A DNA stretch of 37,272 nucleotides from a virus (lineage: Duplodnaviria > Heunggongvirae > Uroviricota > Caudoviricetes): positions 1-37,272 of the IMG/VR virus record IMGVR_UViG_2917403263_000004; one strand, written 5' to 3'. The position numbers and the translations under genes are program-made. A model generated the notes under the pieces. The model made no database searches. It saw only the letters and a program-made list of their open reading frames with translations, and was not told the origin of the DNA. The stretch's first letter is position 1. Each line of letters begins with the position of its first letter. Positions 4,549-30,882 of this stretch are shown piece by piece.

Positions 4549-6555
4549 TCAGCCGATCCCATCATGTCGCCAGACAATGCCCGGTACCGTTCCCGGCAAA
4601 CCTGCTCCTGAATCACGAAAATAAGCAGATACGTTGCCGTCGTATACGCCGGCCACGTTACTGGTGAAATGGCCCTTAAATTCAACCGCGCTAAGACGCG
4701 AGCCAGGGTAATAATAACCCCGCATTATCCGGCGATTCTGGTCTGAAGAGTCACTTCCTCTGTATGCGGCCAGCACCAGACTGCCTGTGCCGTACCAGGC
4801 GTCTGTGGCTCCCGGAGCAATGCCTGACAGAAGATCGATAACGTTCTGAGTGGTAAATTTCAGTGATTCCCAGCCGATGAGATAGCCATTTCCACTTGTC
4901 CAGTAGCGGTTGTGATAAATATTGCCGTTAATGCCATAGAAAGTAATGACCTTTACTGTATGACGCGGGTTCGGCACTCCATACTCTGACTCAACCCAGC
5001 GAATACGAACCATTCCTTTGAACAGCACGTCCGGTATAATTTTATTGCTGCCGTCAACAAGATATTCTCCCGGTTCTGCCTTCCTTACCCACGCAAGAAA
5101 ATCATTTTCTGAGTTAAACCTGATGACCTCGTCAGGGAGAAAGATATGACCAAAGCCGAACGCGCCAGGTATAGCCAGGCGGTCTGCCGTGCGGTCATGA
5201 ATGTCACCCTGCGGCTCCAGTGTGGCAGCTTTTCCAAGCTCAAGGATCGTGTGCATGTCTGCCAGTGTTTCCTGCATCAGCAGAGTGCGCGCCATTTCTG
5301 ACAGTGTGGAAAGCGAAGCATTCCCTTCCGTATCAAAGCACAATAATTTGTCTGCCCGCGCTTTCAAATTGCTGATGGCGGTTAACACGTCACTGAGAGG
5401 TTGCTTGCCTGCCAGCGCGTTGGTGACTGTTGTTGCAAAGTTCGGGTCATTGCCCAGCGCCGCCGCCAGTTCGTTCAGCGTGTCCAGGGCTTCGGGAGAT
5501 GAATCCACCAGTGCAGCGAGCAGTTTGCGGACAAACGCCGCATTTGCGATTTCTGTCCCCGTGGCATCATCAGGCGGTGTCGGGGTTTTCGGAGCGCCGG
5601 TAAAGACCGGACTGTACAGGGTGGCTCTGGCGTTGATTAACGTTAAGAAGTACGCCTCATTTGTCTTCAGGTTATCCCAGCCAGTCAGATAACCACCGCT
5701 GAGAGGCCAGTAACGGTTGTAATAAACATCTCCGTTAACGGTGTATAAAATAATGGCTTTTGCCATATGTTGCGGTTCTGGTGGATTGCGGTTCGCCTCC
5801 AGAAACCGGATATTAATTACACCACAGTAGCCACCGGGTAACACACCATTGGCCCCCTGTACAGAATACTCTCCGGGCGTTGCCTGCTTGACCCATGCTA
5901 GGAGGTCTTTTTCTGTATCAAACCGGATAAGCTCGCCTGGCAGAAACATGTGACCAAAACCAAATGCGCCCGGTATCGCCAGCCGGCCTTCCGTGCGGTC
6001 GTAAATATCACTCTGCGGCTCCATTGTGGCGGCATTTTTCAGTCCCAGATTATCACGGGATTCCTGTTGCGCCTCTTCACCTTCTGCCGCAATTTCTGAC
6101 AGGTGGTTAGCCGTTTTCAGCATTGTTTTCAGTTCCGGATAAATATCCATCTGCCAGCTCTGTGGGGGAACCGTGATTTGTGCAGCCTGAGCCATACCAC
6201 TGTAAGTGATTGCAAAATTACGAAGAAGAGTTTCCCCCACATGTTTGTGGTGAACAGGAGTTTTTATTACACCGCATAGCGTGCCACTTGCCTGGTGAAC
6301 AAGACAAATCCAGTCATAACTGAATTCGGCGTCTTCAGTGACTGCACCGCTACATACAATGCTGTTTGGGGTCAGTTGTCCGTAGGTGAGTTTGTTTACG
6401 GTATAAGTAATTTTTTCCGGTGGAATAATATTATCTTCCGGGCTGGGGTCGCGATTCATTAGTGCAAATACGATGGCATCCGGCCGGGCAGGTAAATTGC
6501 CGGCAATGCATTTTGCAATCCATTTTTCAAATGCTTTCGTTAATAATGCGCTCAT
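4549..6555 (-). CDS. Tail fibre protein 2 (receptor-binding fibre with internal tandem domain repeat)
   Basis: 668 aa. N-terminal about 150 aa homologous to the N-terminus of fibre 1 (PARPD..VFA, EF.Y.WI.L, G.LC motifs). Contains the classic fibre motif DTLNELAAALGNDPNFATTVTNALAGKQP. Two diverged copies of a domain of about 130 aa (aa 165-297 and 433-566). Confidence 0.7.
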   Translation of the reverse strand: MSALLTKAFEKWIAKCIAGNLPARPDAIVFALMNRDPSPEDNIIPPEKITYTVNKLTYGQLTPNSIVCSGAVTEDAEFSYDWICLVHQASGTLCGVIKTPVHHKHVGETLLRNFAITYSGMAQAAQITVPPQSWQMDIYPELKTMLKTANHLSEIAAEGEEAQQESRDNLGLKNAATMEPQSDIYDRTEGRLAIPGAFGFGHMFLPGELIRFDTEKDLLAWVKQATPGEYSVQGANGVLPGGYCGVINIRFLEANRNPPEPQHMAKAIILYTVNGDVYYNRYWPLSGGYLTGWDNLKTNEAYFLTLINARATLYSPVFTGAPKTPTPPDDATGTEIANAAFVRKLLAALVDSSPEALDTLNELAAALGNDPNFATTVTNALAGKQPLSDVLTAISNLKARADKLLCFDTEGNASLSTLSEMARTLLMQETLADMHTILELGKAATLEPQGDIHDRTADRLAIPGAFGFGHIFLPDEVIRFNSENDFLAWVRKAEPGEYLVDGSNKIIPDVLFKGMVRIRWVESEYGVPNPRHTVKVITFYGINGNIYHNRYWTSGNGYLIGWESLKFTTQNVIDLLSGIAPGATDAWYGTGSLVLAAYRGSDSSDQNRRIMRGYYYPGSRLSAVEFKGHFTSNVAGVYDGNVSAYFRDSGAGLPGTVPGIVWRHDGIG

Positions 6556-7114: not shown

Positions 7115-8773
7115 TTACATACTCGCTACGTTATACCAGGTTCCATTAATCAGTTTCTGAAGGGGGCGGATAAACCACCCGTCGGCAGAGTTATCCCAGT
7201 CTCCGTAGCAGTAGCCACCCACACTGACATAACCCGGGGGAGCCAGGTTTGAGCCTGTACTGCCCATCTGTTGATAACCGCCAAGACGCATATCCTGTAC
7301 TCCCATTTTATTTTGCAGGTAAGATGACAGCCATCCTCCCCATGTGCTGCCGTACACGTTACCGTCAGCCGCAAGCCTTGCAGAGCCGTTGCCTGACTGT
7401 AATTCACCTGTTGCGACACTATTTCCATGCACCAGTGAACCGCCACCGGTGGTCACTTTGTGTGACATGGCAATATCACCAGTCCGCAGGTTAATTGAGA
7501 AAGGACGCAGAGGGCCAATATTGCCATTTTCACCCTGTCCTTCCGTGGTGGGGATAAGATGAAGGCTGTCTTCTGAGCGACGAAAAATCAGACCAAAGGC
7601 GCCATCGAAAATCCTCAGCGCATTAACGTCACGAATTTTCAGTTCCCCGGTCATGGTATCGCCACCTCGCTGAACGGCGCCTTCTGCCTTATCAACGGTG
7701 GGCTTTAGTCCGACGTTTTCAATAAACAGTGGTTTGTCGGGGATGTCGCTGCCGTTGCGATTTTTCGCAAGGCGGGCATTTGCGTTATCCATTGCGATTT
7801 TTACCGCTTTTGACGTGGCGGCACGGTCTTCTGCATCACTGTCAGTGGCGTTACTGTACTGAGCGAATCCTTTTTCGTTCAGTGTGGCATCCGGGTGCCT
7901 GCGGGATTTTTCGTGTTCTGCCAGTGCATTGCTTTGTTCTTCGTCGGGTGTCTCCGGACGTAAATCCTGTGAGCCGTCTGCTGTCAGTTTTGCAAGCGGT
8001 GCAACAAAATGCCGAAAGCCATTCCCGTCTGTGTAGGATGCATGTTCCGGGCGGGCGCTGAATGTGAAAACCGTATTCCATTCGCCAGTAACAAATCCCT
8101 GCCAGCTTGCATCAATCCAGATGGTGTCCCCGACCGTTGCGCGCAGGCTGTAAGGTTCGCGCAGACTGACGCGCAAACCTCCCACATAACCAATCCCCGC
8201 GGCAACAATGGCGGTGCCGTTCTGATAGCTCACCTGAAAACCGTCCTCCAGAAAAGCGGCTTCACCGTAGTGATCAAACGCCAGCAGTCTGCGGGCTTCA
8301 TCCATTCCCGCCAGGCGGGCAGTGAAATCAATCTGCCAGACATCAGCACTGACATCGATATGCATCGCTGCTGCCGCACCGTCAAACTCCATGGAAAACG
8401 TGCGGATCAGATTGTTTCCCTGTACACCGTTCGCGGTTTTAATTTTTTGCTGGCAGGGGGTGTGCGCAATCATACAGAGCACGCCGCTTTCTTCGTTCAG
8501 CAGGCCAATCCAGTTGTATTCGAAGTCGCCGATTGTGGTATCCAGAATGATGGAAAATGCGGTTGCATTCGGTGACAGGAGACCGTACTGGGTGACCGGT
8601 GCGCGATACTGGATCAGGGTTTCATCAGGGAGCGTTTCGTCGCGGGGGATCTCTGCAGACTCATCCAGTCCCGGAATATATGCAAAAACAAATGTATCCG
8701 GGCGCGCAGGTTTCCCGCTGATGATCTGATTTGCGCACCAGTGTTCGTATTGTTCAGTAATAATCGTACTCAT
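7115..8773 (-). CDS. Tail fibre protein 1
   Basis: 552 aa. Contains AEHEKSRRHPDATLNEKGFAQYSNATDSDAEDRAATSKAVK, matching the conserved P2 gpH / T4 gp37-type fibre motif (AEHEQSRRHPDASLTAKGF...). ATGA overlap with the upstream baseplate gene. Confidence 0.75.
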   Translation of the reverse strand: MSTIITEQYEHWCANQIISGKPARPDTFVFAYIPGLDESAEIPRDETLPDETLIQYRAPVTQYGLLSPNATAFSIILDTTIGDFEYNWIGLLNEESGVLCMIAHTPCQQKIKTANGVQGNNLIRTFSMEFDGAAAAMHIDVSADVWQIDFTARLAGMDEARRLLAFDHYGEAAFLEDGFQVSYQNGTAIVAAGIGYVGGLRVSLREPYSLRATVGDTIWIDASWQGFVTGEWNTVFTFSARPEHASYTDGNGFRHFVAPLAKLTADGSQDLRPETPDEEQSNALAEHEKSRRHPDATLNEKGFAQYSNATDSDAEDRAATSKAVKIAMDNANARLAKNRNGSDIPDKPLFIENVGLKPTVDKAEGAVQRGGDTMTGELKIRDVNALRIFDGAFGLIFRRSEDSLHLIPTTEGQGENGNIGPLRPFSINLRTGDIAMSHKVTTGGGSLVHGNSVATGELQSGNGSARLAADGNVYGSTWGGWLSSYLQNKMGVQDMRLGGYQQMGSTGSNLAPPGYVSVGGYCYGDWDNSADGWFIRPLQKLINGTWYNVASM

Positions 8774-10589: not shown

Positions 10590-10929
10590 GGGATACCGTA
10601 AAAGTCAGGGGTTCAAAAAAATCTTCTGTATGGGCGTTAATCAGCAGGCGACCGGAAAGAGGTGATTCCTCCGTTACACTGACGGTGCCCGGCGTGATGC
10701 GTTCATCATCCTCAATCAACAGTGTCATCTGCATCATGATGTCGGCGCGAAGTGTCTGGCTTTTTTCTGCCAGCAGACGTGTGGCCAGTCCGCTTTCAAT
10801 GATGGCGTGCTGGCAGTCCTGGGCGATACTTTCCCTGTTGTTGCACAGCACTGGTTCGGCGGCGCTGTTCAGCGTGAAGTTGCGACCGGTGATGAGCAAA
10901 TCGATGTAAAGAGGCTGGTCAGTAAGCAT
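10579..10929 (-). CDS. Baseplate wedge protein (gpW / gp25-like)
   Basis: Start taken at internal ATG 10929 (GGAG RBS; 11-nt overlap with the tape measure stop) rather than the track start 11067. About 116 aa, with a C-terminal pattern resembling P2 gpW. Confidence 0.5.
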   Translation of the reverse strand: MLTDQPLYIDLLITGRNFTLNSAAEPVLCNNRESIAQDCQHAIIESGLATRLLAEKSQTLRADIMMQMTLLIEDDERITPGTVSVTEESPLSGRLLINAHTEDFFEPLTFTVSLDD

Positions 10930-13015
10930 GTAGCTCCATCCATTCGTTAAGACGGGCAGGGGATGCGTCCTGCACGTTGACATTGACCACGCGGCGGGAG
11001 TTGTCGATTGTGGTCTGGTTTTCGCTGTTGTTCCGCATCTCTGCCGCAATGCCGCCCGGTCCTGCACTGATGGCTTTTCCGCCGGTTAATACGGAGCCTT
11101 CGCCGCTCCCTGCGCTTTCTGGCGTGTCGATGTTAACGCCGGGGATCATGTTGAGTTTGTCCACAATCCAGCCCCATGAATCACTGAAGGACTGTTTCAC
11201 CAGCTCCCAGAGGTTGCTGAAAATCTTCAGTATGCCGCCGGCGATATTCTTCAGGGCGTCCAGTGGTGAATGCGTGGAAAAATAGTTAACCAGTGCATTC
11301 CAGCCATCCCGGATTGCGCCCCATGCCTTGTCGAAGCATGTCCCCATACTGCCAACCATTCCCGCCACCCACTGAAAGGCGGCGGTGTCCATCAGTGCGG
11401 CCTTGATTTCATCCCAGCGGGTGATCAGGAAATAAATGCCCACACCCAGCGCAGCCAGTGCCAGGATGATTAACGTAATTGGGCTGAAAAGTAGTTGAGT
11501 GGCAACAGCTGCACCGCTGGTAACGGCGGTATAAATTTTCATGGCCACCGCAGTGGCCCCCAGAGCAATGGAGTAAAGCCAGAGTCCGGCACGCTGTAGT
11601 TTCAGCAGCGCCAGCTGAATTTTTGCTTTGATGTTGTATGTTCCCATTACAAGGGTCATGGCCAGATACAGCGCCCTGACCGTTCGGGCGACGGCACAGA
11701 ATGCCCACATGGTGGCAGTCAGCATGCGTTTCAGCAGAATAAGGATTTTCAGAGGCGCAGTAGCTGCCAGCCAGACCAGCCGGAGCCCGGTCCAGACAAA
11801 CTTTGCTGCGCCCACCACAATGTTTGTCACGGCCCCCACGGCAGCAATGCCCAGCAGTGCACCGGTCAACAGGCCAATGGCGCGGGTGATATTGGGGTAC
11901 AGGCGTAACCAGGCAACAAAGGATTTACCGCCTTCGTTGCTTTTCTGGATGAACGGGTACAGAACGGGCAACAGCTGTGTGCCGATTTCAATACGAATGC
12001 CGTTAATAATTGCGGCGGCCTGTTCCCACGGGTCGGCCATGGCCTGCGCCATTTCGACAGCCTTATCCATGCCTTTGATATTGCCCAGCGTGGCGATATT
12101 CTTTTCCAGTCCGCCAATGTCTGCATTGAGCAATTTAATCATGGCCACGGCCTCATCAGAGCCAAATGCGCTTTTCAGCAAATCGGAGTCAGCCACTTTT
12201 GACAGATCACCAAATTTGCCTCTGATAAGTTTCATGATCTCGACAACACTTTTCATCGTGCCGTCTTTATTCACGAAATTAAGCCCCAGCTTTTTCTGGG
12301 CGCTGCCTACAGCGGCCAGAAATGATTTGTACTTTGTCCCGGCCTCACTGCCGCTCATGGTAGCCTGCAACTGCCCCAGCACGGCGAACTGTTCAGCCGC
12401 ATCAATACCGGCTGCTTTTGCACTGGCACCCAGCGTGGTGAACGCTGCCGACATGTTATCGCCGGTTGTTTTAAACATCTGCACGGCGGTGGCGGTTTGT
12501 CCGGCAACCTGCTCAACCCATTTGCTTTTTCCCATGGCATCAGCCTGGTCTTTAAAAATGCCGTACATGGTGCCCATGTAGGCGGTAATTGTCTGGCTGC
12601 TGGATTTGGTTGCCGCAGCCACTGTTGCTGATGCGGTGGTGAAACGGGAGAGTTCATCGTCAGTTAATCCGGCGATGGCTGACTGGATATCATAAGAAGC
12701 ACGTACAAAATCCTGCGCCGCGCCGCCGTATTCCATAGTGAAATCAACGGCGGCCCGACTGAGTTTACGCAACCCGGATTCCGCGACGCCCAGTGACTTC
12801 ACCTCACCGAGCGCCCGGTCCATTTCAATAGCCGGCATCAGTGCGCCTTTCACGGCGGCACCCACGCCCCAGAGTGCAGCGCCACCGGTGGCGATATTGC
12901 GGAAGGCTCCCCGGCTTGTTGCGGCGAATCCCTGAACCTGTCGGCCCGCCGCACGTAACGGTCTTGTCAGGCGGTCTGTCAGTTCAAGAAGTAATTCAAG
13001 ACGCTGCTGTGACAT
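10919..13015 (-). CDS. Tail tape measure protein
   Basis: 698 aa, Ala/Gly-rich with long predicted helices and a central hydrophobic block (LLTGALLGIAAVGAVTNIVVGAAKFVWTGL...). Lies immediately downstream of the frameshifted chaperone pair. Confidence 0.8.
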   Translation of the reverse strand: MSQQRLELLLELTDRLTRPLRAAGRQVQGFAATSRGAFRNIATGGAALWGVGAAVKGALMPAIEMDRALGEVKSLGVAESGLRKLSRAAVDFTMEYGGAAQDFVRASYDIQSAIAGLTDDELSRFTTASATVAAATKSSSQTITAYMGTMYGIFKDQADAMGKSKWVEQVAGQTATAVQMFKTTGDNMSAAFTTLGASAKAAGIDAAEQFAVLGQLQATMSGSEAGTKYKSFLAAVGSAQKKLGLNFVNKDGTMKSVVEIMKLIRGKFGDLSKVADSDLLKSAFGSDEAVAMIKLLNADIGGLEKNIATLGNIKGMDKAVEMAQAMADPWEQAAAIINGIRIEIGTQLLPVLYPFIQKSNEGGKSFVAWLRLYPNITRAIGLLTGALLGIAAVGAVTNIVVGAAKFVWTGLRLVWLAATAPLKILILLKRMLTATMWAFCAVARTVRALYLAMTLVMGTYNIKAKIQLALLKLQRAGLWLYSIALGATAVAMKIYTAVTSGAAVATQLLFSPITLIILALAALGVGIYFLITRWDEIKAALMDTAAFQWVAGMVGSMGTCFDKAWGAIRDGWNALVNYFSTHSPLDALKNIAGGILKIFSNLWELVKQSFSDSWGWIVDKLNMIPGVNIDTPESAGSGEGSVLTGGKAISAGPGGIAAEMRNNSENQTTIDNSRRVVNVNVQDASPARLNEWMELHAY

Positions 13016-13212
13016 TACGATCCTTTAAAAGCGCGAATAATGCCGTTATTGACGGCGATACCCATATTTCCCCAGTAGTGGTTATCCAGCCAGACGGCGG
13101 CAGCCAGTGACTGCGGCGAATCATCTTCGCCGGGCAGCCAGTGGCGGCGCAGGATTAGCATCCGGGTCAGGTCATTGCGATCAATGGCCCCCAGATGGCT
13201 TTTTATTTTTTT
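13015..13212 (-). other. Programmed -1 frameshift extension of the tail chaperone (G-T / E+E'-like fusion product)
   Basis: Slippery run A7 at 13206..13212 at the end of the chaperone ORF. The -1 frame stays open for about 65 codons (KKIKSHLGAIDRNDLTRMLILRRHWLPGEDDSPQSLAAAVWLDNHYWGNMGIAVNNGIIRAFKGS) and stops at TAA overlapping the tape measure ATG (TAATG). Confidence 0.5.
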
Positions 13213-13496
13213 ACGGTGATTTCCACTTCCGGTACGAACTCGTTATTCACGGCCGTTGCCAGGCTTGCCGGCATTCCTGGCTTTTCCAGCAACTGATTCA
13301 GCAGATCGCGGTGGTCTTTAATCACGATGCGGCGCAGGTAGTTTTTCAGTGGCGCGATTTTGTTATCCGGCATGAAGTCGTTCTGCAGGTCGTTGTAGGC
13401 TTTAACTGTCGGGATAAACGTCAGTTCATGCTCGCCCACCTGTAAAGTGATGGTGTTTTCTGCAGTGGTTTGGGTGTTTTTATCGTTCATCATCAT
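13203..13496 (-). CDS. Tail assembly chaperone (G / gpE-like, frame 0 product)
   Basis: 97 aa, acidic, directly upstream of the tape measure gene. Ends in GTA AAA AAA TAA. Confidence 0.6.
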   Translation of the reverse strand: MMMNDKNTQTTAENTITLQVGEHELTFIPTVKAYNDLQNDFMPDNKIAPLKNYLRRIVIKDHRDLLNQLLEKPGMPASLATAVNNEFVPEVEITVKK

Positions 13497-13582
13497 TTCC
13501 TGTTAATGTCAAGAATAAGAGGGCTTAATAAGACCATCAGGAGGCTTATTAAGACTGTCGGTGGCCTTATCCCGTATCGGAA

Positions 13583-13924
13583 TCAGCGCACGCCGTTGTG
13601 CTCAAGGCTGAAATGATTGCCATCCGGGCGGTTTTTAAAACGACCGCCCCATGCACCGCCAAGGGATTCCCAGTACTCGCCCAGTTCGCGGTAGGCCTCT
13701 GTGCGGGTCTGATATTCACCGTTAATAAACAGATTAAAATCCACTGCCAGCCGCTGGCAGTGCAGGCTGTTGGCAGTGCCGGATCCCTTTTGCGCATTGA
13801 GTTTTGCCTGCTCCGGCGTGCGGTACGCTTCACCGAATGTCAGGCCATAACCGCGCTGATGGGCAAACTGGATGAGTTTGCCGACCATGACGGTAAATTG
13901 TTGTTGCTTATCGGAGAGTTTCAT
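13583..13924 (-). CDS. Endolysin, peptidase M15 family (zinc D-Ala-D-Ala carboxypeptidase-like)
   Basis: 113 aa with SLHCQRLAVDFN and DGNHFSLEH, the H..D and H..H metal-binding motifs of M15 peptidases. Follows the holin. Confidence 0.7.
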   Translation of the reverse strand: MKLSDKQQQFTVMVGKLIQFAHQRGYGLTFGEAYRTPEQAKLNAQKGSGTANSLHCQRLAVDFNLFINGEYQTRTEAYRELGEYWESLGGAWGGRFKNRPDGNHFSLEHNGVR

Positions 13925-14025
13925 TTTTGCTCCTTACGGGGTTGCTGAGGTTTGCGCAGCCAGTGCCACAGCACCCGGATAATTTTCCAGGCGGCAGCGG
14001 CTTTTTGTTCCCTGCGGGACAGCAT
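13921..14025 (-). CDS. Small basic ORF (34 aa) between holin and endolysin
   Basis: Manual translation MLSRREQKAAAAWKIIRVLWHWLRKPQQPRKEQK. AGAGGAG lies 8 nt upstream. Its stop overlaps the endolysin ATG (ATGA). Not in the ORF track because of length. Confidence 0.3.
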   Translation of the reverse strand: MLSRREQKAAAAWKIIRVLWHWLRKPQQPRKEQK

Positions 14026-14030
14026 CGCTG

Positions 14031-14327
14031 TTACTCCTCTTTGTTTTCTTTCTCGCCCAGCTTCCGGCGCATATGGCGCAGGAAAATTTCAACAATCTGG
14101 TAGCCGGCTACGCCCATTGCGGTGCCAGCGCCGGCAATAGCCAGCGGGTCAAGATTCGGATAACGAACCAGCAGGGCTGCAGCAGAAACACCCAATGCGC
14201 TACCCAGCAGGGTTCGCCCCACAAACAACCGCAATGTAATCGGCTCCGCGCCAGCCAGCACCCGGCTGGCGGCGGCAATGCCGCCAAGAATGCCCAGGGT
14301 GATGATGGTGCGTTCATGCTCCTGCAT
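14031..14327 (-). CDS. Holin
   Basis: 98 aa with two hydrophobic segments (IITLGILGGIAAASRVLAG, TLLGSALGVSAAALLV) and a charged C-terminus (RHMRRKLGEKENKEE). Immediately upstream of the endolysin. Confidence 0.6.
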   Translation of the reverse strand: MQEHERTIITLGILGGIAAASRVLAGAEPITLRLFVGRTLLGSALGVSAAALLVRYPNLDPLAIAGAGTAMGVAGYQIVEIFLRHMRRKLGEKENKEE

Positions 14328-14330
14328 GGT

Positions 14331-14786
14331 TCACCCCATCAGCCCGCGCACGTCGTTCTCTGAGAGAACGGGCACGCCGTTGATACGCACAAAATCGGGG
14401 CTGGCCACCACGTACTTGATTTTGTGCGTGGTCAGGTCTGCACTCCCGGTGTCAATGCTTAACAACCCGGAGAGCATCAGCTCGCAACCGAAGGCTTCGA
14501 CGCGGATTTCCTCGGTACCGGTGTTGGCGTAGAACACAAAATCCATTGGCGGCAGATCGCGCCATGATCCTGCCTGAGCGGCCACTTCCCCTAGCTGGTT
14601 AAAACTGCGGGTGCTCATTTCAATTTCACCTTCGGCACTGACGGGGCCGCGCAGTTTGCCGTCAGGGATGCCACGGGTTTTGGCAACGGCGCTTTCATCA
14701 CTGATGTCCAGCGAGATGTTATTCACATGGATATCCGTTCCACCGATAAAGGTGTCAAACGCCATGCCGTTAATGCGGGTGGTCAT
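14331..14786 (-). CDS. Putative tail tube protein
   Basis: 151 aa directly downstream of the sheath-like gene (4-nt overlap). Size and position fit a tube protein. No strong motif. Confidence 0.5.
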   Translation of the reverse strand: MTTRINGMAFDTFIGGTDIHVNNISLDISDESAVAKTRGIPDGKLRGPVSAEGEIEMSTRSFNQLGEVAAQAGSWRDLPPMDFVFYANTGTEEIRVEAFGCELMLSGLLSIDTGSADLTTHKIKYVVASPDFVRINGVPVLSENDVRGLMG

Positions 14787-15931
14787 GCACTTTCCTCCAG
14801 AGATTTATCCAGCTGAATGCCCACCTTGATGGTTTTGGGGCAAGCGTAAGGGCGAACAACAATGCTGATACTGACCGTCTTTTCGTCCTGCCAGGTGATG
14901 GCCACATCGCCTTTTTGTGGCGATTTCACTTCGCCCGGAAAGGTGACACCGTTAATCTGCTTGGATTTCGCCATGGTACGCAGCGGGCGGGCAAACAACG
15001 TTTCATGTGCGGCAATGCTGCCCGGTGTGCTGTTCAGTGAACGATCGGCAATTTTGGGGATGGCCATCAGTCGCACGCGGCGCGCCACCTTATCTGCAAT
15101 GCGGACATGCTCAATGACGTTGTAGTCCCCGCCTTCCACCTCAAGTGTCACACCATCAGCCCAGTAAAGGCCGTCATAGTCGGCATACCACATGGGCACG
15201 CTGTAGCGGGCGGTAGCCAGTGCCTGCAGGGTGGCGAGATCAATTGCCTGTCCTGCGCTGTCCTTCGGACGTTCTGTGGTTTTCAGTGCAGACAGAGCCC
15301 CGGTTGCCACGCGTGCGGGACTGTCAGCAATGGTGACGGCGTTGTTACACAGGCGACCGGCAAGAACGCCCGGTTCAAATCCAAAAATCTCCGGAACCAG
15401 CATGACCTGCGGGGCTGCAATACCTTTCTGTAGCGTGGTCAGTTCGGCGACGTATTCCGCCCAGGTTTTACTGCCGTCGTTGGCGGTGATGGTCAGGATG
15501 AACCAGATGCGGCGCTGATATTTATTAATGATGGTCTGACGTAACGCCTGTATGGCGTTGATGTCATCCTTCGTGCTGACCGGTTCAGTGATCACCACGC
15601 CTTCAACTGAAATGGTTTCCTGAGCGGCCAGCACGGCGTTTTGCCATGCCTGGCAGGCCGGCGTTGCTTCTTTGCCTTTGCCTGCGTCCGGCAGAACGGC
15701 GACATAAAAAAAGGCATTCTGTCCAGCATTGGTCAGAGCGGACTGAAGGAAATTTTTCAACGGGCTCGCGTTCGTTCCCAGCAACTCATCCAGATCGCTG
15801 TTGGCGTTAACCGGCAGAACTTTGCCTTTGTTGTTTTGTGCGCTACCCACAAACAACAGTGTATTTTCCACGCCGTCCGGCGAGCTACTGAACGTGTTGT
15901 ACTGTTCAATCGTGACAGATGGCCAGGTCAT
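14783..15931 (-). CDS. Putative tail sheath protein
   Basis: Start taken at internal ATG 15931 (CAGGAG RBS, 8-nt spacer) rather than the track start 16015, giving 382 aa. Followed by the tube-like gene. Confidence 0.5.
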   Translation of the reverse strand: MTWPSVTIEQYNTFSSSPDGVENTLLFVGSAQNNKGKVLPVNANSDLDELLGTNASPLKNFLQSALTNAGQNAFFYVAVLPDAGKGKEATPACQAWQNAVLAAQETISVEGVVITEPVSTKDDINAIQALRQTIINKYQRRIWFILTITANDGSKTWAEYVAELTTLQKGIAAPQVMLVPEIFGFEPGVLAGRLCNNAVTIADSPARVATGALSALKTTERPKDSAGQAIDLATLQALATARYSVPMWYADYDGLYWADGVTLEVEGGDYNVIEHVRIADKVARRVRLMAIPKIADRSLNSTPGSIAAHETLFARPLRTMAKSKQINGVTFPGEVKSPQKGDVAITWQDEKTVSISIVVRPYACPKTIKVGIQLDKSLEESA

Positions 15932-15950
15932 AATTTGTCTCCTGATTTTG

Positions 15951-16664
15951 TTATCTCGTGCCGCCGTAATGCAGGCTACGCAACTGCGCTTCCAGAATGC
16001 GGGTAAATTCAGCATCGCTGGCTCCCAGAAATGCGCGGGAGGGGATTTTTATTTCCCATACACGTTTTTTCTGCTCGCCTTTCAGAATGCTGATCACCAG
16101 TCCGGCCTGCGCCATACTCATGTTTTCCATAATCCATTTCAGGGAGGGCTTTCTGCGTCCCCTGCGTCCGGTTTTTTTGCTGACTGCGCCGACGGGGGCG
16201 CGAAAGCCCAGAGAAAGAAGCCGCTCCGCCTGCCGTCGTGTGGCGGGTCGGGTGCGCATGGTTTCGTTGTTCCGGCGTTTTGTGGCGCGACCTTTGATGG
16301 TTGCACCGTGCTGTTGCACCCACGCGACCGCCCCGCCATGAGAGCCGGTGTTGTAGCCCCCTTTTTTGAAGAAAAGGCGGACACTTTTCCCGTTACTGTC
16401 AACCCTGATGGCCAGCAGTTTTGGCAGTCCCAGCAGCATTTTGTTTTTATACTTACCGCTGGCTTTATCTGGTCTTTTTCGTGGTGCCCAGGCTGCCCCT
16501 TCCGGTGTTCTCTGTGCTTTCACATTGCGTCGTGCAGCTGGCATCAGGCCGTATTTCGCAATACGAACCAGCAGCTTTCTGGCCTTTACCGGCGGAAGTT
16601 CTGCCGCTCTGATGGCGCGATGAACCTGCCGGAGCTGTGATTCATTAATCGCAGGGCGCGTCAT
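15951..16664 (-). CDS. Virion morphogenesis / tail completion protein (gpS-like)
   Basis: 237 aa with an Arg/Lys-rich middle region. Position between gpR-like and sheath genes. Family assignment from general resemblance only. Confidence 0.45.
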   Translation of the reverse strand: MTRPAINESQLRQVHRAIRAAELPPVKARKLLVRIAKYGLMPAARRNVKAQRTPEGAAWAPRKRPDKASGKYKNKMLLGLPKLLAIRVDSNGKSVRLFFKKGGYNTGSHGGAVAWVQQHGATIKGRATKRRNNETMRTRPATRRQAERLLSLGFRAPVGAVSKKTGRRGRRKPSLKWIMENMSMAQAGLVISILKGEQKKRVWEIKIPSRAFLGASDAEFTRILEAQLRSLHYGGTR

Positions 16665-26846: not shown

Positions 26847-29326
26847 TCAGAAAGCACGGTAACAGGGGTTTTCATGGTGTTCTGGTCCTGCTGAAGTGTG
26901 GATGCCAGGCGTGCGGCGGCTTCGGGGTCTCGATGCCCCCAGCTGTTCCAGATAGCTGGCGACCGGGTTATGGCGGATCTCCGTGCTGCTTACGCCGTGA
27001 TTACGGCTCAGGCGCTGCCAGAGCTGCGTGATTCGGCTGTCCGGGCGGGTATCCGGTTTGCGTACAATTTCAAATCCCTGCGGTGCAATGATGCTGCCGT
27101 CAACGTACAGACTGCCGCCCCGTAACAGGTGCTGCATCTGCTGTTCACCGATATGCAGGCCGAGAGATTCAGCAGACTCCCGCCATTCTTTAGCGAGTAA
27201 CTCATGGTTATCAGGCAAAGGCCACGGTGTTGGCCGTTCTTTCGGCTGTTCTGTCCCGTTGTTGTCCGTTTCCTGTACATGGGGACAGTTATTGCCACGA
27301 GTCCAAGGGGCGGCAGGGCCGCCCTGAAGGTCAAAACCATTTTCGCGGGCGCTGTCTTCCGCTTCCGGTTTACGTCTTACCAGCTTCCAGTTATCCGGGT
27401 GCGTGCACACGCGGGAAGATTCCCCGATGAGCGGCGACCAGATCCCGTAAATCTGTACACTCTGCTCGCCGTAATCGTTCAGCTCATCTGCGAGGTCGTA
27501 GGCGGTGCGAATCAGGTAGTCTTTACGTGGAACAAGTACGCCGCCCTGTTTTTCAATGTAGGAGGCAAAACACCCGGCATCGGCGGCAGCGAGTACCGCA
27601 TCCATTGCGTCATCCTTCAGCCGTTGCGGGCCTTCCGGGTTGCGTGCCATCTGGCTGGCAAGGCGGCGCAGTTCACGCCATACCTGACGGGAGGGGATGC
27701 CAAAGAACTGGAACTGGCGGACCCGATGAAGGCGCGCCCAGCCGATGGCGCGCTCCACGCTCTCGGCCATTGATTTTCCGGTTTCGTGGTCAACGCGTGG
27801 TTTGCCCGTTTTCGGATCGATTCCATCCACGGCGCGGCTGTCCAGGTTTTTTCCGATGTAGGTGGCGATGTAGCTGGTTGGCGTGCCTTTGGAGCCGTCG
27901 ACGTACTCCACCTTAAAGCGCGGAGTAATATCATTGCCCAGCTCGTGGCGGTCTTCCTGAATGGCAATATCGCGGGTGATGGCCACGATGCTGTCGATTT
28001 CTTCCGGATGAGCAAAGACCATCATATGCCAGTGCACGGTGCCGTCATGGTGAGGCTCCACCGTGCGGATGCCATACCAGCGCAGGCCGTCGCGGTTCAG
28101 TTTTTGCGGACCGCCGCAAAAAACGTGTTAACCAGGTAATCGCTGGAGTCGCGCATGGTGGCCCCGTTCCATTTGGGATTCGGATGACCGTTCTCTGTTG
28201 TGGCGTGGTATTTTGACGGGCAGGTGACAGTCAGAAACACCGCTTTGTCGCCACGGGCTTCGGCCAGAAGTTCCAGTCCCTTCATGGTGGCCATCATTTC
28301 TGCCTTACGGTGAACCGGGTTACTTACTCCCGCGTAATACACTGTCTCGAGATCAATCGTGAAGCCGTCTTCGTTTTCCAGTTCGAAGCTCTTCAGGAAG
28401 TCGCGGGTTTTCTCGCGCTGTGCGCGAAACTCGCTTAACGCGTCCTGGCTCAGATAGGGTGATGTTTTTCTGGAAACCAGACAGGCGGCGCGGAGTTGTT
28501 CTTCTCTCCACTCGCAACGTAACAGCCACAGTTTGCGTTTCCACCAGTCCGCACAGGTCAGGCGGAGGATTGCGCCCGGCAGCAGTTCCGTATCCGGATC
28601 GCTCTTGTTCAGGGCTTCGTAATGTGGCGGCATGATGTGCAGGCGTAATGCGATACGAGCCAGCATCCGGTAAGCCTTCAACATTACATCCATGGTCAGC
28701 TCGCCATCTCTGGCACCAAAGCCATCGCAGAGTGTTTCGAAGGTGCTGCTGAACATCGCCGCGGTCATGGTGGCCAGCGTCTGTATCTGGTGCTTGTTGA
28801 GCTGCGGCAGGTAAAGCAAATCGTCCAGGCGTTCGCGCCCGGCAAGGGAGCGATAACCCGGTGTCAGCCAGCGTCCGTCAGTGCGATCCAGACGTTCGAA
28901 TATTTTGCGCAGGGTTCCGCGTGCATAGCGTTCCGCCTGCCAGCTCTTTTTGCCTTTCTGGCGATCGGCTTCCTGTTTTTTGCGCAGGAAGGAGAGGTGG
29001 CGAATAAGCGGATCGCGCAGATAGGACGGCAGCAGGCGCAGCGAGGCCATGGCTTCATCCACCGCGCCGCGTGCCTGCTTTCTGGCGTCTCCTGCCAGTG
29101 TGATGGTTTTGTCCTGTTTTTCCTGTGCGTCCAGGCTTTTATTAATCAGGTTGCCCAGCGGCGTGGCGGAGAACGCCGCATCAGCCATTTCCTGGCGGCG
29201 CTCGTTCTCTACCCGGTAGGCATCCAGCCAGGAGGAAAGCGCGGATTCAGGAGCGGGGATCCCCGTTCCTTCACGCCCCACTGCGTGGCGCGGTTGTTGC
29301 CAGTCCCTGATGTACTCTGCCGTCAT
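26847..29326 (-). pseudogene. Replication initiation protein gpA (rolling-circle HUH endonuclease), split by a 1-nt frameshift
   Basis: Two track ORFs (28097..29326 and 26847..28061) in different frames. The C-terminal part carries HUH and catalytic-Tyr motifs (GTVHWHMMVFAHPEE, YIATYIGK). The frames join if one A is added to the minus-strand A5 run (plus T5 at 28101..28105): ...FFAAVRKK-LNRDGLRWYGIRTVEPHHDG. Confidence 0.7.
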
Positions 29327-30321: not shown

Positions 30322-30882
30322 TCAGTTTGGTAATAGCTCGTACAGCACGGCGTCGGCGGCGGTGCGGCGACCGTAAAGAAAACGTGCTGTGCGAGTGGTG
30401 ACTTTTATTTGCAGTGTGTGATTAATGTGTTTTGCTATCATGGCGAACGTCATGTGTTGCTCATCATGTAGTTCAGTCACCAGTTCCACCAGGTGATCGC
30501 TGTATCTGGTCAGGTGGTGGAGTTCTCCACATTTTCGCAGGCTGTAACCACGTTTTTTCAGGTGCACTTGTACTGTGCGACGGGTGCATCCCATCTCGGT
30601 GGCCAGTTCCTTCGCCGTTCTGGTGCGGCGGTTTTCGATGAGAAAGGCGATCTCCTTTGCACTCAGTGTCTTTTTTTTGCGACCAATCAATCCACGGCCA
30701 CGTAAAAAACTAAGTCGGTGCATAACGGCGTCATGGGTTCGTTGAATTCGTTCAGTTATCTGGCGCGTGTTGTGCTCCGGATAAAGCGAGATAAGCATTT
30801 CATCTTCCCATTGTGCCCATGGCTTTACATGTGCCGGAGCCACGCCTGGTGTACCCATTGGTTTGAGTTTGAATTTGTGCAT
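30322..30882 (-). CDS. Putative HTH DNA-binding protein (186 aa)
   Basis: C-terminal half has a helix-turn-helix-like segment (TAKELATEMGCTRRTVQVHLKKRGYS). No family assigned. Confidence 0.5.
   Translation of the reverse strand: MHKFKLKPMGTPGVAPAHVKPWAQWEDEMLISLYPEHNTRQITERIQRTHDAVMHRLSFLRGRGLIGRKKKTLSAKEIAFLIENRRTRTAKELATEMGCTRRTVQVHLKKRGYSLRKCGELHHLTRYSDHLVELVTELHDEQHMTFAMIAKHINHTLQIKVTTRTARFLYGRRTAADAVLYELLPN

What the first reader, a model, noticed from the sequence alone, without database searches (positions are those of the whole stretch)
13015..13215. Canonical -1 slippery site joining the tail chaperone to an extension ending at the tape-measure start
The chaperone ORF ends GTA AAA AAA TAA. 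A -1 shift on the A7 run opens a frame of about 65 codons with no stops, terminating at TAA that overlaps the tape measure ATG. This is the conserved G/G-T (lambda) or E/E+E' (P2) arrangement and supports the tail-module annotation.
Basis: partly seen in the sequence, partly recalled or inferred. Interest (0 to 1): 0.45.

Follow-up and report, generated by a model that had tools for sequence, protein, structure and literature searches.

The report
Tail chaperone programmed −1 frameshift
This prophage makes two versions of its tail-assembly chaperone by letting a small share of ribosomes slip back one base on a run of seven A's, an ordinary and well-known phage trick, though databases still list the slipped-frame part as a separate protein of unknown function (DUF6890).

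Summary
The chaperone ORF (13496..13203) ends GTA AAA AAA TAA. The heptamer A_AAA_AAA (13212..13206) lies in the register needed for −1 slippage. The −1 frame then runs 63 sense codons to a TAA (13017..13015) that shares its last A with the tape-measure ATG.

Window statistics alone are weak; the comparative evidence decides. All 228 distinct relatives (50 clusters at 90% identity) plus 8 further phage genera keep an in-frame A_AAA_AAN heptamer and a 55–64-codon −1 ORF ending at the tape-measure start. Substitutions in the extension fall mainly on third positions of the −1 frame. This also holds upstream of the ATG that PGAP uses to call a free-standing "DUF6890 family protein". That ATG has no Shine-Dalgarno and is not conserved.

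The chaperone matches Pfam Phage_TAC_10, and its model resembles the HK97 chaperone fold. The extension matches DUF6890. A hairpin starts 5 nt after the heptamer (−19.4 kcal/mol, z −3.1), but its own lineage gives no covariation support.

Verdict: a G/GT- or E/E+E′-type programmed frameshift of the HP1-like Peduoviridae. It is analogous to λ and P2, with no detectable sequence homology to P2. It is ordinary biology with modest annotation value. No record inspected annotates the joined product.

The parts
13203..13496 (-). Tail assembly chaperone ORF (0 frame), 97 aa from the first ATG. ATGs at 13496, 13493 and 13490; PGAP orthologues use the third, giving 95 aa.
13206..13212 (-). Slippery heptamer A_AAA_AAA in 0-frame register (the A of GTA, then AAA, AAA).
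   Evidence: An in-frame A_AAA_AAN is conserved in 228/228 distinct relatives and in 8 more genera. The Val codon supplying heptamer base 1 is GTA in 227/228, while the preceding codon varies freely.
13203..13205 (-). 0-frame stop codon TAA immediately 3' of the heptamer.
   Evidence: The stop is adjacent in all 154 relatives whose heptamer ends in A or C. It lies 7 codons later in the 74 whose heptamer ends in G.
13015..13206 (-). -1 frame extension: 63 sense codons (ATA at 13206..13204 through TCG at 13020..13018) plus TAA at 13017..13015. The fused CDS is join(13496..13206, 13206..13015) on the minus strand, 160 aa.
   Evidence: Pfam PF21830 DUF6890, E 2.6e-21, fusion residues 116-159. PHROG 7050. 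Gapless alignment of fused products across the junction. Third-position share of substitutions in the -1 frame is 61% overall, 74% in the window's lineage, and 69.5% in the first 15 codons.
13015..13161 (-). The ORF that PGAP annotates in E. coli orthologues as a free-standing 48-aa 'DUF6890 family protein' (ATG = Met113 of the fusion). Judged here to be an annotation artefact.
   Evidence: for the annotation. SD duplex energy is -1.1 kcal/mol against -4.3 to -9.3 for real starts nearby. The aligned codon is ATG in only 33 of 226 relatives, and two lineages have no ATG/GTG/TTG in the first 25 codons. The ATG lies in the 3' arm of the predicted hairpin.
13157..13200 (-). Predicted RNA stem-loop starting 5 nt after the heptamer; a possible frameshift stimulator.
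   Evidence: -19.4 kcal/mol, z -3.07, 0/200 shuffles as stable. Top 1.8% of GC-matched 56-mers on this strand and top 5% overall. 90% of cells paired in 11 lineage members, but with no significant covariation, and one G-C pair is broken in 4 of 11. No Rfam match and no terminator-like T-run.
10919..13015 (-). Tape measure protein gene (698 aa). Its ATG overlaps the extension's TAA by one base. An SD-like AAGGA at 13025..13021 lies inside the extension's last codons.
   Evidence: Pfam PF10145, E 5.7e-29; PHROG 28, E 2.2e-94. SD duplex -5.4 kcal/mol. In most relatives the -1 ORF ends within -4 to +24 nt of the tape-measure start.
13583..16015 (-). Upstream context: sheath (14783..16015, DUF2586/PHROG 907), tube (14331..14786, Phage_HP1_Orf24), holin (14031..14327) and M15 endolysin (13583..13924).
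   Evidence: The same order is seen in ESSI2_ev239, HP1, K139, phi3 and phiO18P.

Best explanation
This is a programmed -1 ribosomal frameshift in the tail assembly chaperone (TAC) gene of an HP1-like, P2-family (Peduoviridae) prophage.

Most ribosomes translate the 95-97-aa chaperone and terminate at TAA 13205..13203. A minority slip back one base while the lysine tRNAs sit on A_AAA_AAA (13212..13206). They then read ATA AAA AGC ... in the -1 frame and add 63 residues (the DUF6890 domain), terminating at the TAA that overlaps the tape-measure ATG. The two products share the N-terminal chaperone domain.

By analogy with lambda gpG/gpGT and P2 gpE/gpE+E', the shared domain coats the tape-measure protein. 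The extension, present in a small fixed proportion of molecules, recruits the tail tube so that polymerisation starts on the tape measure.

Shown here: the sequence anatomy, its universal conservation, protein-level selection on the -1 frame, the lack of an independent start, and the TAC family and fold. Inferred: that slippage is ribosomal, that its level is low, that the hairpin 5 nt downstream and/or the adjacent stop stimulate it, and the binding partners of the two domains.
For: Anatomy.

Families: PF10963 Phage_TAC_10 plus PF21830 DUF6890 on the fused product, next to a PF10145 tape measure and an HP1-type sheath and tube.

Conservation:
- tblastn of the fusion hits 76 phage records, every one as two pieces in two frames.
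- 228 distinct sequences, forming 50 clusters at 90% and 10 at 70% identity, all carry an in-frame A_AAA_AAN and a 55-64-codon -1 ORF, apart from one with a 44-codon extension and contig-truncated loci. The +1 frame is open for a median of only 19 codons.
- 8 more genera show the same arrangement.
- The fused proteins align without gaps across the junction.
- The -1 ORF ends at or near the tape-measure start in most relatives.

Selection: third-position share of substitutions is 61% in the extension and 69.5% in the 15 codons upstream of the annotated start, similar to the TAC's own frame. Heptamer base 1 is fixed synonymously, with GTA in 227/228.

No independent start: no SD, and the ATG is not conserved.

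RNA: a hairpin with a 5-nt spacer in the window. A similarly placed 8-bp stem in the ESSI2 lineage is paired in 100% of cells and has two compensatory pairs.

Literature: the G/GT frameshift is widely conserved in long-tailed phages (PMC5009743). A_AAA_AAA gives 0.41% -1 frameshifting in E. coli without a stimulator and 24.8% with a strong one (PMC4066793 supplement).
Against: No protein or ribosome-profiling data exist, so the fusion product is inferred. The window's hairpin has no covariation support in its own lineage, and one pair is broken in 4 of 11 members. Other lineages place their hairpins at different distances (HP1 about 25 nt away) or show none (Yersinia, phiO18P). No universal stimulator is therefore evident, and there is no conserved upstream SD-like element. 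A7 could also support transcriptional slippage, which would give the same protein. No public record inspected annotates a joined CDS.
Confidence: 0.88

Rival explanations
1. The DUF6890 ORF is an independent small gene. On this view a 48-aa protein is initiated at ATG 13161 (Met113), as PGAP, Pfam and PHROGs implicitly treat it, and no recoding occurs.
For: An ATG exists at 13161 and opens a 48-codon ORF. RefSeq annotates 'DUF6890 family protein' this way in E. coli prophages. Several phage records annotate a small separate ORF. The Pfam DUF6890 profile starts just after this Met.
Against: SD duplex energy is -1.1 kcal/mol, and 77% of all ATGs on this strand do as well or better; real starts nearby score -4.3 to -9.3. 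The aligned codon is CTG, TAT, GCN, TTG and others in most relatives, and two lineages have no ATG/GTG/TTG in the first 25 codons. The 15 codons upstream of it evolve as coding sequence in the -1 frame, with 69.5% of changes at third positions, and encode a conserved KK/KN-L-T-x-R-x-x-x-I-E motif. The annotated starts differ between records: ATG, TTG, or none, leaving a 190-nt 'gap'. The ATG is buried in the hairpin's 3' arm.
Confidence: 0.04
2. Transcriptional slippage rather than ribosomal slippage. On this view RNA polymerase adds one A on the A7/T7 run, giving A8 mRNAs that encode the same fusion (V-K-K-I-K...) by standard translation.
For: The window has a 7-nt homopolymer. AAAAAAA is under-represented in all frames of E. 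coli genes, possibly because of transcriptional slippage or indels (PMC4066793). The protein product would be identical. This same window shows a 1-nt length change in another A-run, in gene A, so A-runs here are length-unstable at some level.
Against: 195 of 228 relatives have only A6 followed by C or G, which from general knowledge is too short for efficient slippage by bacterial RNA polymerase. The run is always in the exact X_XXY_YYZ register. Stable hairpins 5-9 nt downstream in the window, ESSI2 and Vibrio lineages, with compensatory changes in the ESSI2 lineage, are the signature of ribosomal frameshifting. Both routes could nevertheless contribute in the A7 lineages.
Confidence: 0.07
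3. No functional recoding. On this view the open -1 frame and the heptamer are coincidental, or a relic or sequencing indel in a homopolymer that splits one gene.
For: In-window statistics are weak: 23.5% of positions and frames are open for at least 63 codons, and 76 in-frame heptamers occur. The window does carry a homopolymer indel elsewhere, in gene A.
Against: The frame break is present in 228/228 independent distinct sequences and 8 more genera, with three heptamer variants. No full-length in-frame fusion was found among database hits. The extension is under purifying selection.
Confidence: 0.01

Closest known systems
Phage lambda gpG / gpGT (-1 PRF at G_GGA_AAG; Levin 1993; Xu, Hendrix & Duda 2004, 2013, 2014, as summarised in PMC5009743)
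   Different: I ran no direct sequence comparison with lambda G or T. The Pfam scan of the fused product at E <= 0.1 returned only PF10963 and PF21830. The heptamer is A_AAA_AAA, and the 0-frame stop directly abuts it. The host phage is a contractile-tailed P2/HP1-type myovirus with a lysis cassette between the tube gene and the TAC gene.
Phage P2 gpE / gpE+E' (PF10109 Phage_TAC_7 + PF06528 Phage_P2_GpE; -1 PRF at T_TTT_TTG)
   Same: Same virus family (Peduoviridae), same position before the tape-measure gene T, and an extension of similar size (P2 142 aa against 160 aa here). In both, the extension's stop overlaps or abuts the tape-measure start. Both show the same two-family pattern in Pfam, with the extension filed as a separate small family.
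   Different: No detectable homology: hhalign probability 0.2%, and different Pfam families. The slippery sequence differs, and in P2 the 0-frame continues 6 codons after the site. P2's record annotates the joined CDS, whereas none of the HP1-type records inspected does.
HP1 orf26, K139 orf30 and ESSI-2-type chaperones of HP1-like Peduoviridae (the true family of this gene)
   Same: Direct homologues at 35-51% identity over the fused product, with the same PF10963 + PF21830 pair. They carry the same A_AAA_AAN heptamer, mostly followed at once by a stop, and the same -1 ORF length.
   Different: Most relatives use A_AAA_AAC; the window lineage and several Vibrio-type lineages use A_AAA_AAA; Pseudomonas lineages use A_AAA_AAG with the stop 7 codons later. 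The window lineage lacks the spanin genes that precede the TAC in the others.
Bacterial -1 PRF sites on A-rich heptamers: dnaX (A_AAA_AAG), IS1 (A_AAA_AAC), IS600/IS3-family (A_AAA_AAA)
   Same: Same class of shift site decoded by lysine tRNA. IS1's A_AAA_AAC works without an established stimulator, and the IS600-type A_AAA_AAA is stimulated by a stem-loop (PMC4066793). The window has a candidate stem-loop with a 5-nt spacer.
   Different: There is no conserved upstream SD-like stimulator as in dnaX or IS911. The biological output is a chaperone ratio, not a transposase or a polymerase subunit.

Membership tests
Tail assembly chaperone genes with conserved -1 frameshift (lambda G/GT type) | Two overlapping ORFs lie between the major tail/tube gene and the tape-measure gene, immediately upstream of the tape measure. 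| tested here: met
   The order is tube 14331..14786, then holin and endolysin, then TAC 13203..13496, the -1 ORF, and tape measure 10919..13015. The -1 ORF ends at the tape-measure ATG, and at or near it in most relatives.
Tail assembly chaperone genes with conserved -1 frameshift (lambda G/GT type) | [quoted passage not shown] | tested here: met
   A_AAA_AAA at 13212..13206. It is conserved as A_AAA_AAN in 228/228 relatives plus 8 more genera, with synonymous fixation of base 1.
Tail assembly chaperone genes with conserved -1 frameshift (lambda G/GT type) | The second ORF has no translation start of its own and is under protein-coding selection from the shift site onward. | tested here: met
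   SD energy is -1.1 kcal/mol at the only ATG, and start codons are not conserved. 69.5% of changes in the first 15 codons are at third positions.
Tail assembly chaperone genes with conserved -1 frameshift (lambda G/GT type) | Both products are made at a fixed low ratio, both are required for tail assembly, and neither is in the virion. | not testable with these tools
   This needs expression, mass spectrometry and genetics. Only reference efficiencies for the heptamers in E. coli are available.
Tail assembly chaperone genes with conserved -1 frameshift (lambda G/GT type) | TAC fold of the N-terminal domain. | tested here: met
Pfam PF10963 Phage_TAC_10 | Score above the gathering threshold over the full profile. 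| tested here: met
   90.5 bits against 25.7; profile positions 1-82 of 82.
Pfam PF21830 DUF6890 | Score above the gathering threshold. | tested here: met
   75.5 bits against 23.6; profile positions 1-44 of 44 on fusion residues 116-159. HP1 and phi3 fusions also match.
P2 gpE / gpE+E' (PF10109 + PF06528) | Sequence homology to P2 E and E'. | tested here: not met
   hhalign of the 8-member fusion alignment against P2 E+E' gives probability 0.2%. P2 matches PF10109 and PF06528, and the window product matches neither. It works like E/E+E' but is not a member.
dnaX/IS911-type stimulated -1 PRF | An SD-like element 6-17 nt upstream of the heptamer. | tested here: not met
   The anti-SD duplex is -4.2 kcal/mol in the window and about 0 in the HP1, phi3 and Vibrio lineages; it is not conserved.
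dnaX/IS911-type stimulated -1 PRF | A stable RNA structure 5-9 nt downstream of the heptamer, supported by covariation. | tested here: inconclusive
   The window hairpin has a 5-nt spacer, -19.4 kcal/mol and z -3.07, and is in the top 1.8% of GC-matched windows. Its own lineage gives no covariation. The ESSI2 lineage supports a similarly placed stem, while other lineages differ.

The most novel reading that the evidence does not exclude
The stop codon that directly abuts the heptamer may be a functional part of the signal. All 154 distinct relatives with the weak sites A_AAA_AAA or A_AAA_AAC have the 0-frame stop immediately 3'. The 74 with the intrinsically shiftier A_AAA_AAG have it 7 codons later (the same pattern holds in 8 more genera). 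This would fit a termination-coupled -1 slip, in which slow release at the stop lets the P-site tRNA re-pair. Lineage-specific hairpins would tune the level. That would be a distinct sub-mechanism of chaperone frameshifting shared by a whole clade of HP1-like phages. A corollary is that Pfam DUF6890 and PHROG 7050 are never free-standing proteins. Caveat: the G-ending sites all come from one Pseudomonas clade, so the contrast may rest on a single evolutionary event.
Probability: 0.25. Interest if true: 0.45.

Novelty: new member of a known kind. Interest (0 to 1): 0.25.

Why it matters
Biologically this is the expected chaperone frameshift, so it mainly confirms the tail-module annotation.

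Its practical value is for annotation. In this clade the frameshifted product is not annotated in any RefSeq or GenBank record I inspected. The extension is either left as an unannotated ~190-nt gap or called as a separate "hypothetical" or "DUF6890 family" protein with inconsistent starts. It is filed as "unknown function" in Pfam (PF21830) and PHROGs (7050). Assigning DUF6890 as the −1 extension domain of Phage_TAC_10 chaperones, the counterpart of λ T and P2 E′, would correct the annotation of 41 of 5,426 complete E. coli genomes for this lineage alone, and of many Vibrio, Haemophilus, Pasteurella, Aeromonas and Pseudomonas prophages.

The clade also offers a natural series for studying how shift-site strength is balanced to hold a chaperone ratio: A_AAA_AAA or A_AAA_AAC with an adjacent stop, A_AAA_AAG without one, and movable hairpins.

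Tried and rejected
- The search for related loci with the 8-member fusion alignment on genome contigs failed because no block was conserved enough. I replaced it with five viral-contig scans using TAC-only queries. The single-protein genome scan returned only Escherichia albertii.
- I looked for a natural full-length in-frame TAC–DUF6890 fusion in the 5.8-billion-protein database. There is none. The one protein with both domains (P0005) is a deletion derivative.
- A sequence search of the PDB with the fusion found nothing.
- NCBIfam has no model for the product.
- Rfam gave no hit, and the promoter/terminator scan found nothing in the junction.
- An upstream SD-like stimulator is not conserved.
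- Literature: I could not obtain Xu, Hendrix & Duda 2004. I therefore cannot say whether HP1 or K139 were among its 28 phages. Full-text searches for DUF6890, PF10963, or HP1 + frameshift + chaperone found nothing relevant. The E. coli heptamer survey (PMC4066793) lists other prophage chaperone clusters but not this one.
- I considered that the split replication gene A (stop at 28097, also after AAA AAC TGA) might be a second recoding site. I rejected this because E. coli homologues are 1 nt longer and intact.
Full report
**1. Observation**

The genes here are on the minus strand. The reverse complement of 13496..13203 is a 97-aa ORF. It begins with three consecutive ATGs, and PGAP orthologues start at the third, giving 95 aa. 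It ends ...GAA ATC ACC GTA AAA AAA TAA.

The seven A's occupy 13212..13206. In the chaperone's frame they read A_AAA_AAA, a canonical X_XXY_YYZ heptamer, and the TAA stop (13205..13203) follows directly. The −1 frame is already open 37 nt upstream of that stop.

After a −1 slip the reading is ATA AAA AGC CAT ... for 63 sense codons. It ends at TAA 13017..13015, whose last base is the A of the tape-measure ATG (13015..13013, TAATG). The fused product is 160 aa.

**2. Chance**

The window alone does not settle it. 23.5% of all positions and frames in this densely coding window are open for at least 63 codons. There are 76 in-frame X_XXY_YYZ heptamers in ORFs of at least 90 aa, many of which are spurious ORFs. 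What stands out is the placement: the last two codons of a real gene, with a −1 ORF that exactly fills the otherwise non-coding 188 nt up to the next gene.

**3. What the parts are**

| Part | Match |
|---|---|
| Fused product, residues 16–97 | Pfam PF10963 Phage_TAC_10, E 7.6e-26, full profile |
| Fused product, residues 116–159 | Pfam PF21830 DUF6890, E 2.6e-21, full profile |
| Same two parts | PHROGs 1214 and 7050, both "unknown function" |
| Downstream gene | Tape measure, PF10145 and PHROG 28 |
| Upstream genes | M15 endolysin, holin, HP1_Orf24-type tube, DUF2586-type sheath |
| Rest of the window | P2-family capsid, GPO scaffold, terminase, portal, gpR, gene A |

**4. Comparative test**

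A tblastn of the fused product against 50,697 phage records hits 76 records. They come from Vibrio, Escherichia, Pseudomonas, Pseudoalteromonas, Salmonella, Pasteurella, Aeromonas, Haemophilus, Yersinia and Cronobacter phages. Every hit comes as two pieces, that is, in two frames.

I then collected loci using chaperone-only queries, so the extension was not part of the selection. This gave 263 loci and 228 distinct sequences, forming 50 clusters at 90% and 10 at 70% amino-acid identity. All 228 have an in-frame A_AAA_AAN heptamer at the chaperone's 3′ end:

| Heptamer | Position of the 0-frame stop | Distinct sequences | Lineages |
|---|---|---|---|
| AAAAAAC | immediately after | 121 | most lineages |
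| AAAAAAA | immediately after | 33 | the window's lineage and a Vibrio lineage |
| AAAAAAG | 7 codons later | 74 | Pseudomonas phi3 lineage |

The −1 ORF after the site is 55–64 codons in almost all complete loci (one has 44), while the +1 frame is open for a median of only 19 codons. Eight further genera checked by hand behave identically. Fused products from eight genera align without a gap across the junction. In most relatives the −1 ORF ends within −4 to +24 nt of the tape-measure start.

**5. Is the extension translated from the shift site, or from its own start?**

RefSeq/PGAP annotates the E. coli orthologues as three genes: "putative phage tail assembly chaperone", "DUF6890 family protein" (48 aa from the ATG equivalent to 13161) and "tape measure". 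Other records use a TTG, a different ATG, or leave a ~190-nt gap. None inspected has a joined CDS. Four observations argue against an independent start:

- The codon aligned with the window's Met113 is ATG in only 33 of 226 relatives. It is otherwise CTG, TAT, TTG, GCN, GTG and others, and two lineages have no ATG/GTG/TTG in the first 25 codons.
- The window ATG has no Shine-Dalgarno. Its duplex energy is −1.1 kcal/mol, and 77% of all ATGs on the strand do as well or better. Real starts nearby score −4.3 to −9.3.
- The 15 codons between the heptamer and Met113 evolve as coding sequence in the −1 frame, with 69.5% of differences at third positions. They encode a conserved motif, KK/KN-L-T-x-R-x-x-x-I-E-x-N. 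Over the whole extension the third-position share is 61%, and 74% within the window's own lineage, comparable to the chaperone's own frame.
- The valine codon that supplies heptamer base 1 is GTA in 227 of 228 sequences, including GC-rich Pseudomonas phages, while the preceding codon varies freely among synonyms. This indicates selection on the nucleotide sequence of the heptamer.

**6. Stimulators**

The 56 nt after the heptamer fold into a stem-loop that starts 5 nt downstream (13200..13157). Its energy is −19.4 kcal/mol with z −3.07, and none of 200 shuffles is as stable. It ranks in the top 5% of all 56-nt windows on this strand and the top 1.8% of GC-matched ones. The spacing is right for a −1 stimulator.

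Support from the window's own lineage is lacking. Across 11 distinct sequences, 90% of cells are paired, covariation is no better than shuffles, and one G-C pair is broken in 4 of 11. Other lineages give a mixed picture:

- The ESSI2-type lineage has an 8-bp stem at +9/+39. It is paired in 176 of 176 cells and has two pairs with compensatory changes; 0 of 500 shuffles reach its covariation score.
- A Vibrio lineage has a similar hairpin.
- The HP1 lineage has a 13-bp helix, but about 25 nt downstream.
- The Yersinia and phiO18P representatives show nothing unusual.

There is no conserved SD-like element upstream, no Rfam match and no terminator. A downstream hairpin is therefore plausible for this window but not established, and no single structure is shared by the clade.

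Published E. coli measurements of −1 frameshifting (PMC4066793 supplement):

| Heptamer | No stimulator | IS911 stimulators | IS3 pseudoknot |
|---|---|---|---|
| A_AAA_AAA | 0.41% | 0.82% | 24.8% |
| A_AAA_AAC | 0.16% | 0.19% | 0.74% |
| A_AAA_AAG | 0.29% | 4.3% | 39% |

A low-percentage output is expected here, and it would be sensitive to any downstream structure.

**7. Mechanism and rivals**

The best explanation is ribosomal −1 slippage on A_AAA_AAA. It yields a short chaperone and a rare chaperone–DUF6890 fusion. By analogy with λ gpG/gpGT (PMC5009743), the shared domain binds the tape measure and the extension recruits the tube. That functional step is inferred, not shown.

- **Transcriptional slippage on A7.** This would give an identical protein and cannot be excluded as a contributor. 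However, 195 of 228 relatives have only A6 in a strict reading-frame register, and several have hairpins at stimulator distance. These features point to the ribosome.
- **Independent initiation of DUF6890.** Section 5 argues against it.
- **Sequencing indel.** The universal frame break across independent assemblies excludes this, and no full-length in-frame fusion was found.

**8. Comparison with known systems**

It works like λ G/GT and P2 E/E+E′. P2's own pair is PF10109 + PF06528, with T_TTT_TTG and a stop that overlaps gene T. The window's pair is PF10963 + PF21830, and profile comparison with P2 E+E′ gives 0.2% probability. It is an analogue of P2 E/E+E′, not a detectable homologue. Its true family is the HP1 orf26 / K139 orf30 / ESSI-2 group.

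I could not read Xu et al. 2004, so I cannot say whether HP1-type phages were among the 28 it listed. Nothing in the searchable literature links DUF6890, PF10963 or HP1-like chaperones to the frameshift. A 2024 genome paper on a member of this clade still lists the two ORFs separately.

**9. Verdict**

The finding is correct and ordinary: a new, unannotated member of a well-known kind. Its modest added value has three parts:

- DUF6890 / PHROG 7050 is assigned as the frameshift extension of Phage_TAC_10 chaperones.
- A systematic annotation gap in this clade is documented.
- Weak heptamers (ending in A or C) always abut the stop, whereas the strong one (ending in G) does not. This could mean the stop is part of the signal, but the contrast rests on one Pseudomonas clade.

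Noticed in passing
window 26847..29326 (-), junction at 28097..28108: The replication gene A (Phage_GPA) is split into two ORFs. The first ends CGC AAA AAC TGA at 28097, and the rest continues in the -1 frame and contains the EPHHDGTVHWH motif. E. coli homologues at 99.8% identity are 1 nt longer over the same stretch and are annotated as an intact 'replication endonuclease'. The window therefore has a 1-nt deletion in an A-run: a defective prophage or a homopolymer sequencing error, not a conserved recoding site.
   Followed up: yes
protein P0005 (Salmonella Montevideo); corresponds to window ~13333..13324 and ~13150..13141 (-): A 96-aa database protein carries both PF10963 and PF21830. It is the chaperone's first ~54 residues joined directly to the extension at '...NYLRR|HWLPG...'. 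This is apparently a deletion between two copies of CCTGCGCCGC (Leu-Arg-Arg in both frames) that happens to restore one ORF. It is not a full-length natural fusion.
   Followed up: partly
related loci (L001-L272), heptamer and following codon: A heptamer ending in A or C is always followed at once by the 0-frame stop (154/154 distinct sequences, plus 7 of the 8 extra genera). A heptamer ending in G (Pseudomonas lineages, 74 sequences plus phage UFJF_PfPro) has the stop 7 codons later. This suggests the stop may compensate for weaker shift sites, but all G cases belong to one clade.
   Followed up: partly
L002-type loci (ESSI2 lineage), +9..+39 after the heptamer; L004-type loci (HP1 lineage), +25..+55: Conserved hairpins occur at lineage-specific distances from the shift site. 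The ESSI2-type stem is 8 bp, is paired in 100% of cells and has two compensatory pairs (GC<->AU in 9 of 22 and 1 of 22 sequences). The HP1-type helix is 13 bp, is 93% paired and lies about 25 nt downstream, which is too far for a classical -1 stimulator, so its role is unclear.
   Followed up: partly
window 13497..13582 and 13925..14030 (-): The window's lineage has no spanin (Rz/Rz1-like) genes between the endolysin and the chaperone. ESSI2_ev239, vB_YenM_324, HP1, phi3 and phiO18P have spanin-like genes annotated there (K139 has an unnamed ORF there). Only 86 nt separate the endolysin stop from the chaperone start. I did not check whether spanins lie elsewhere in the window.
   Followed up: no
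window 30670..30676 (-), inside ORF 30322..30882 (-): An in-frame A_AAA_AAG heptamer lies in a 186-aa HTH-domain gene and is followed by a 65-codon open -1 frame, 115 codons before the gene's own stop. It is probably chance, and its conservation was not examined.
   Followed up: no
window 13021..13026 (-): The tape-measure Shine-Dalgarno (AAAGGA, -5.4 kcal/mol) lies inside the last codons of the extension (F-K-G-S). Many lineages end the extension with a similar ...(A/G)(F/L)(K/N)G. The conserved C-terminal 'KG' may therefore partly reflect the tape-measure ribosome-binding site rather than protein function.
   Followed up: partly
window 4549..6555 (-) and 7115..8773 (-): Two separate genes each begin with a Phage_tail_fib (tail-collar fibre, N-terminal) domain. 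This suggests two alternative or tandem tail-fibre genes in this prophage.
   Followed up: no
L264 (Escherichia albertii NBRC 107761) against E. coli genomes: The junction region is only ~93% identical to its best matches in 41 of 5,426 complete E. coli genomes. The chaperone is 99% identical to an Escherichia albertii prophage and to about a dozen IMG/VR contigs. By contrast, the gene A region is 99.8% identical to E. coli prophages in more than 1,300 genomes, so the element looks mosaic.
   Followed up: no
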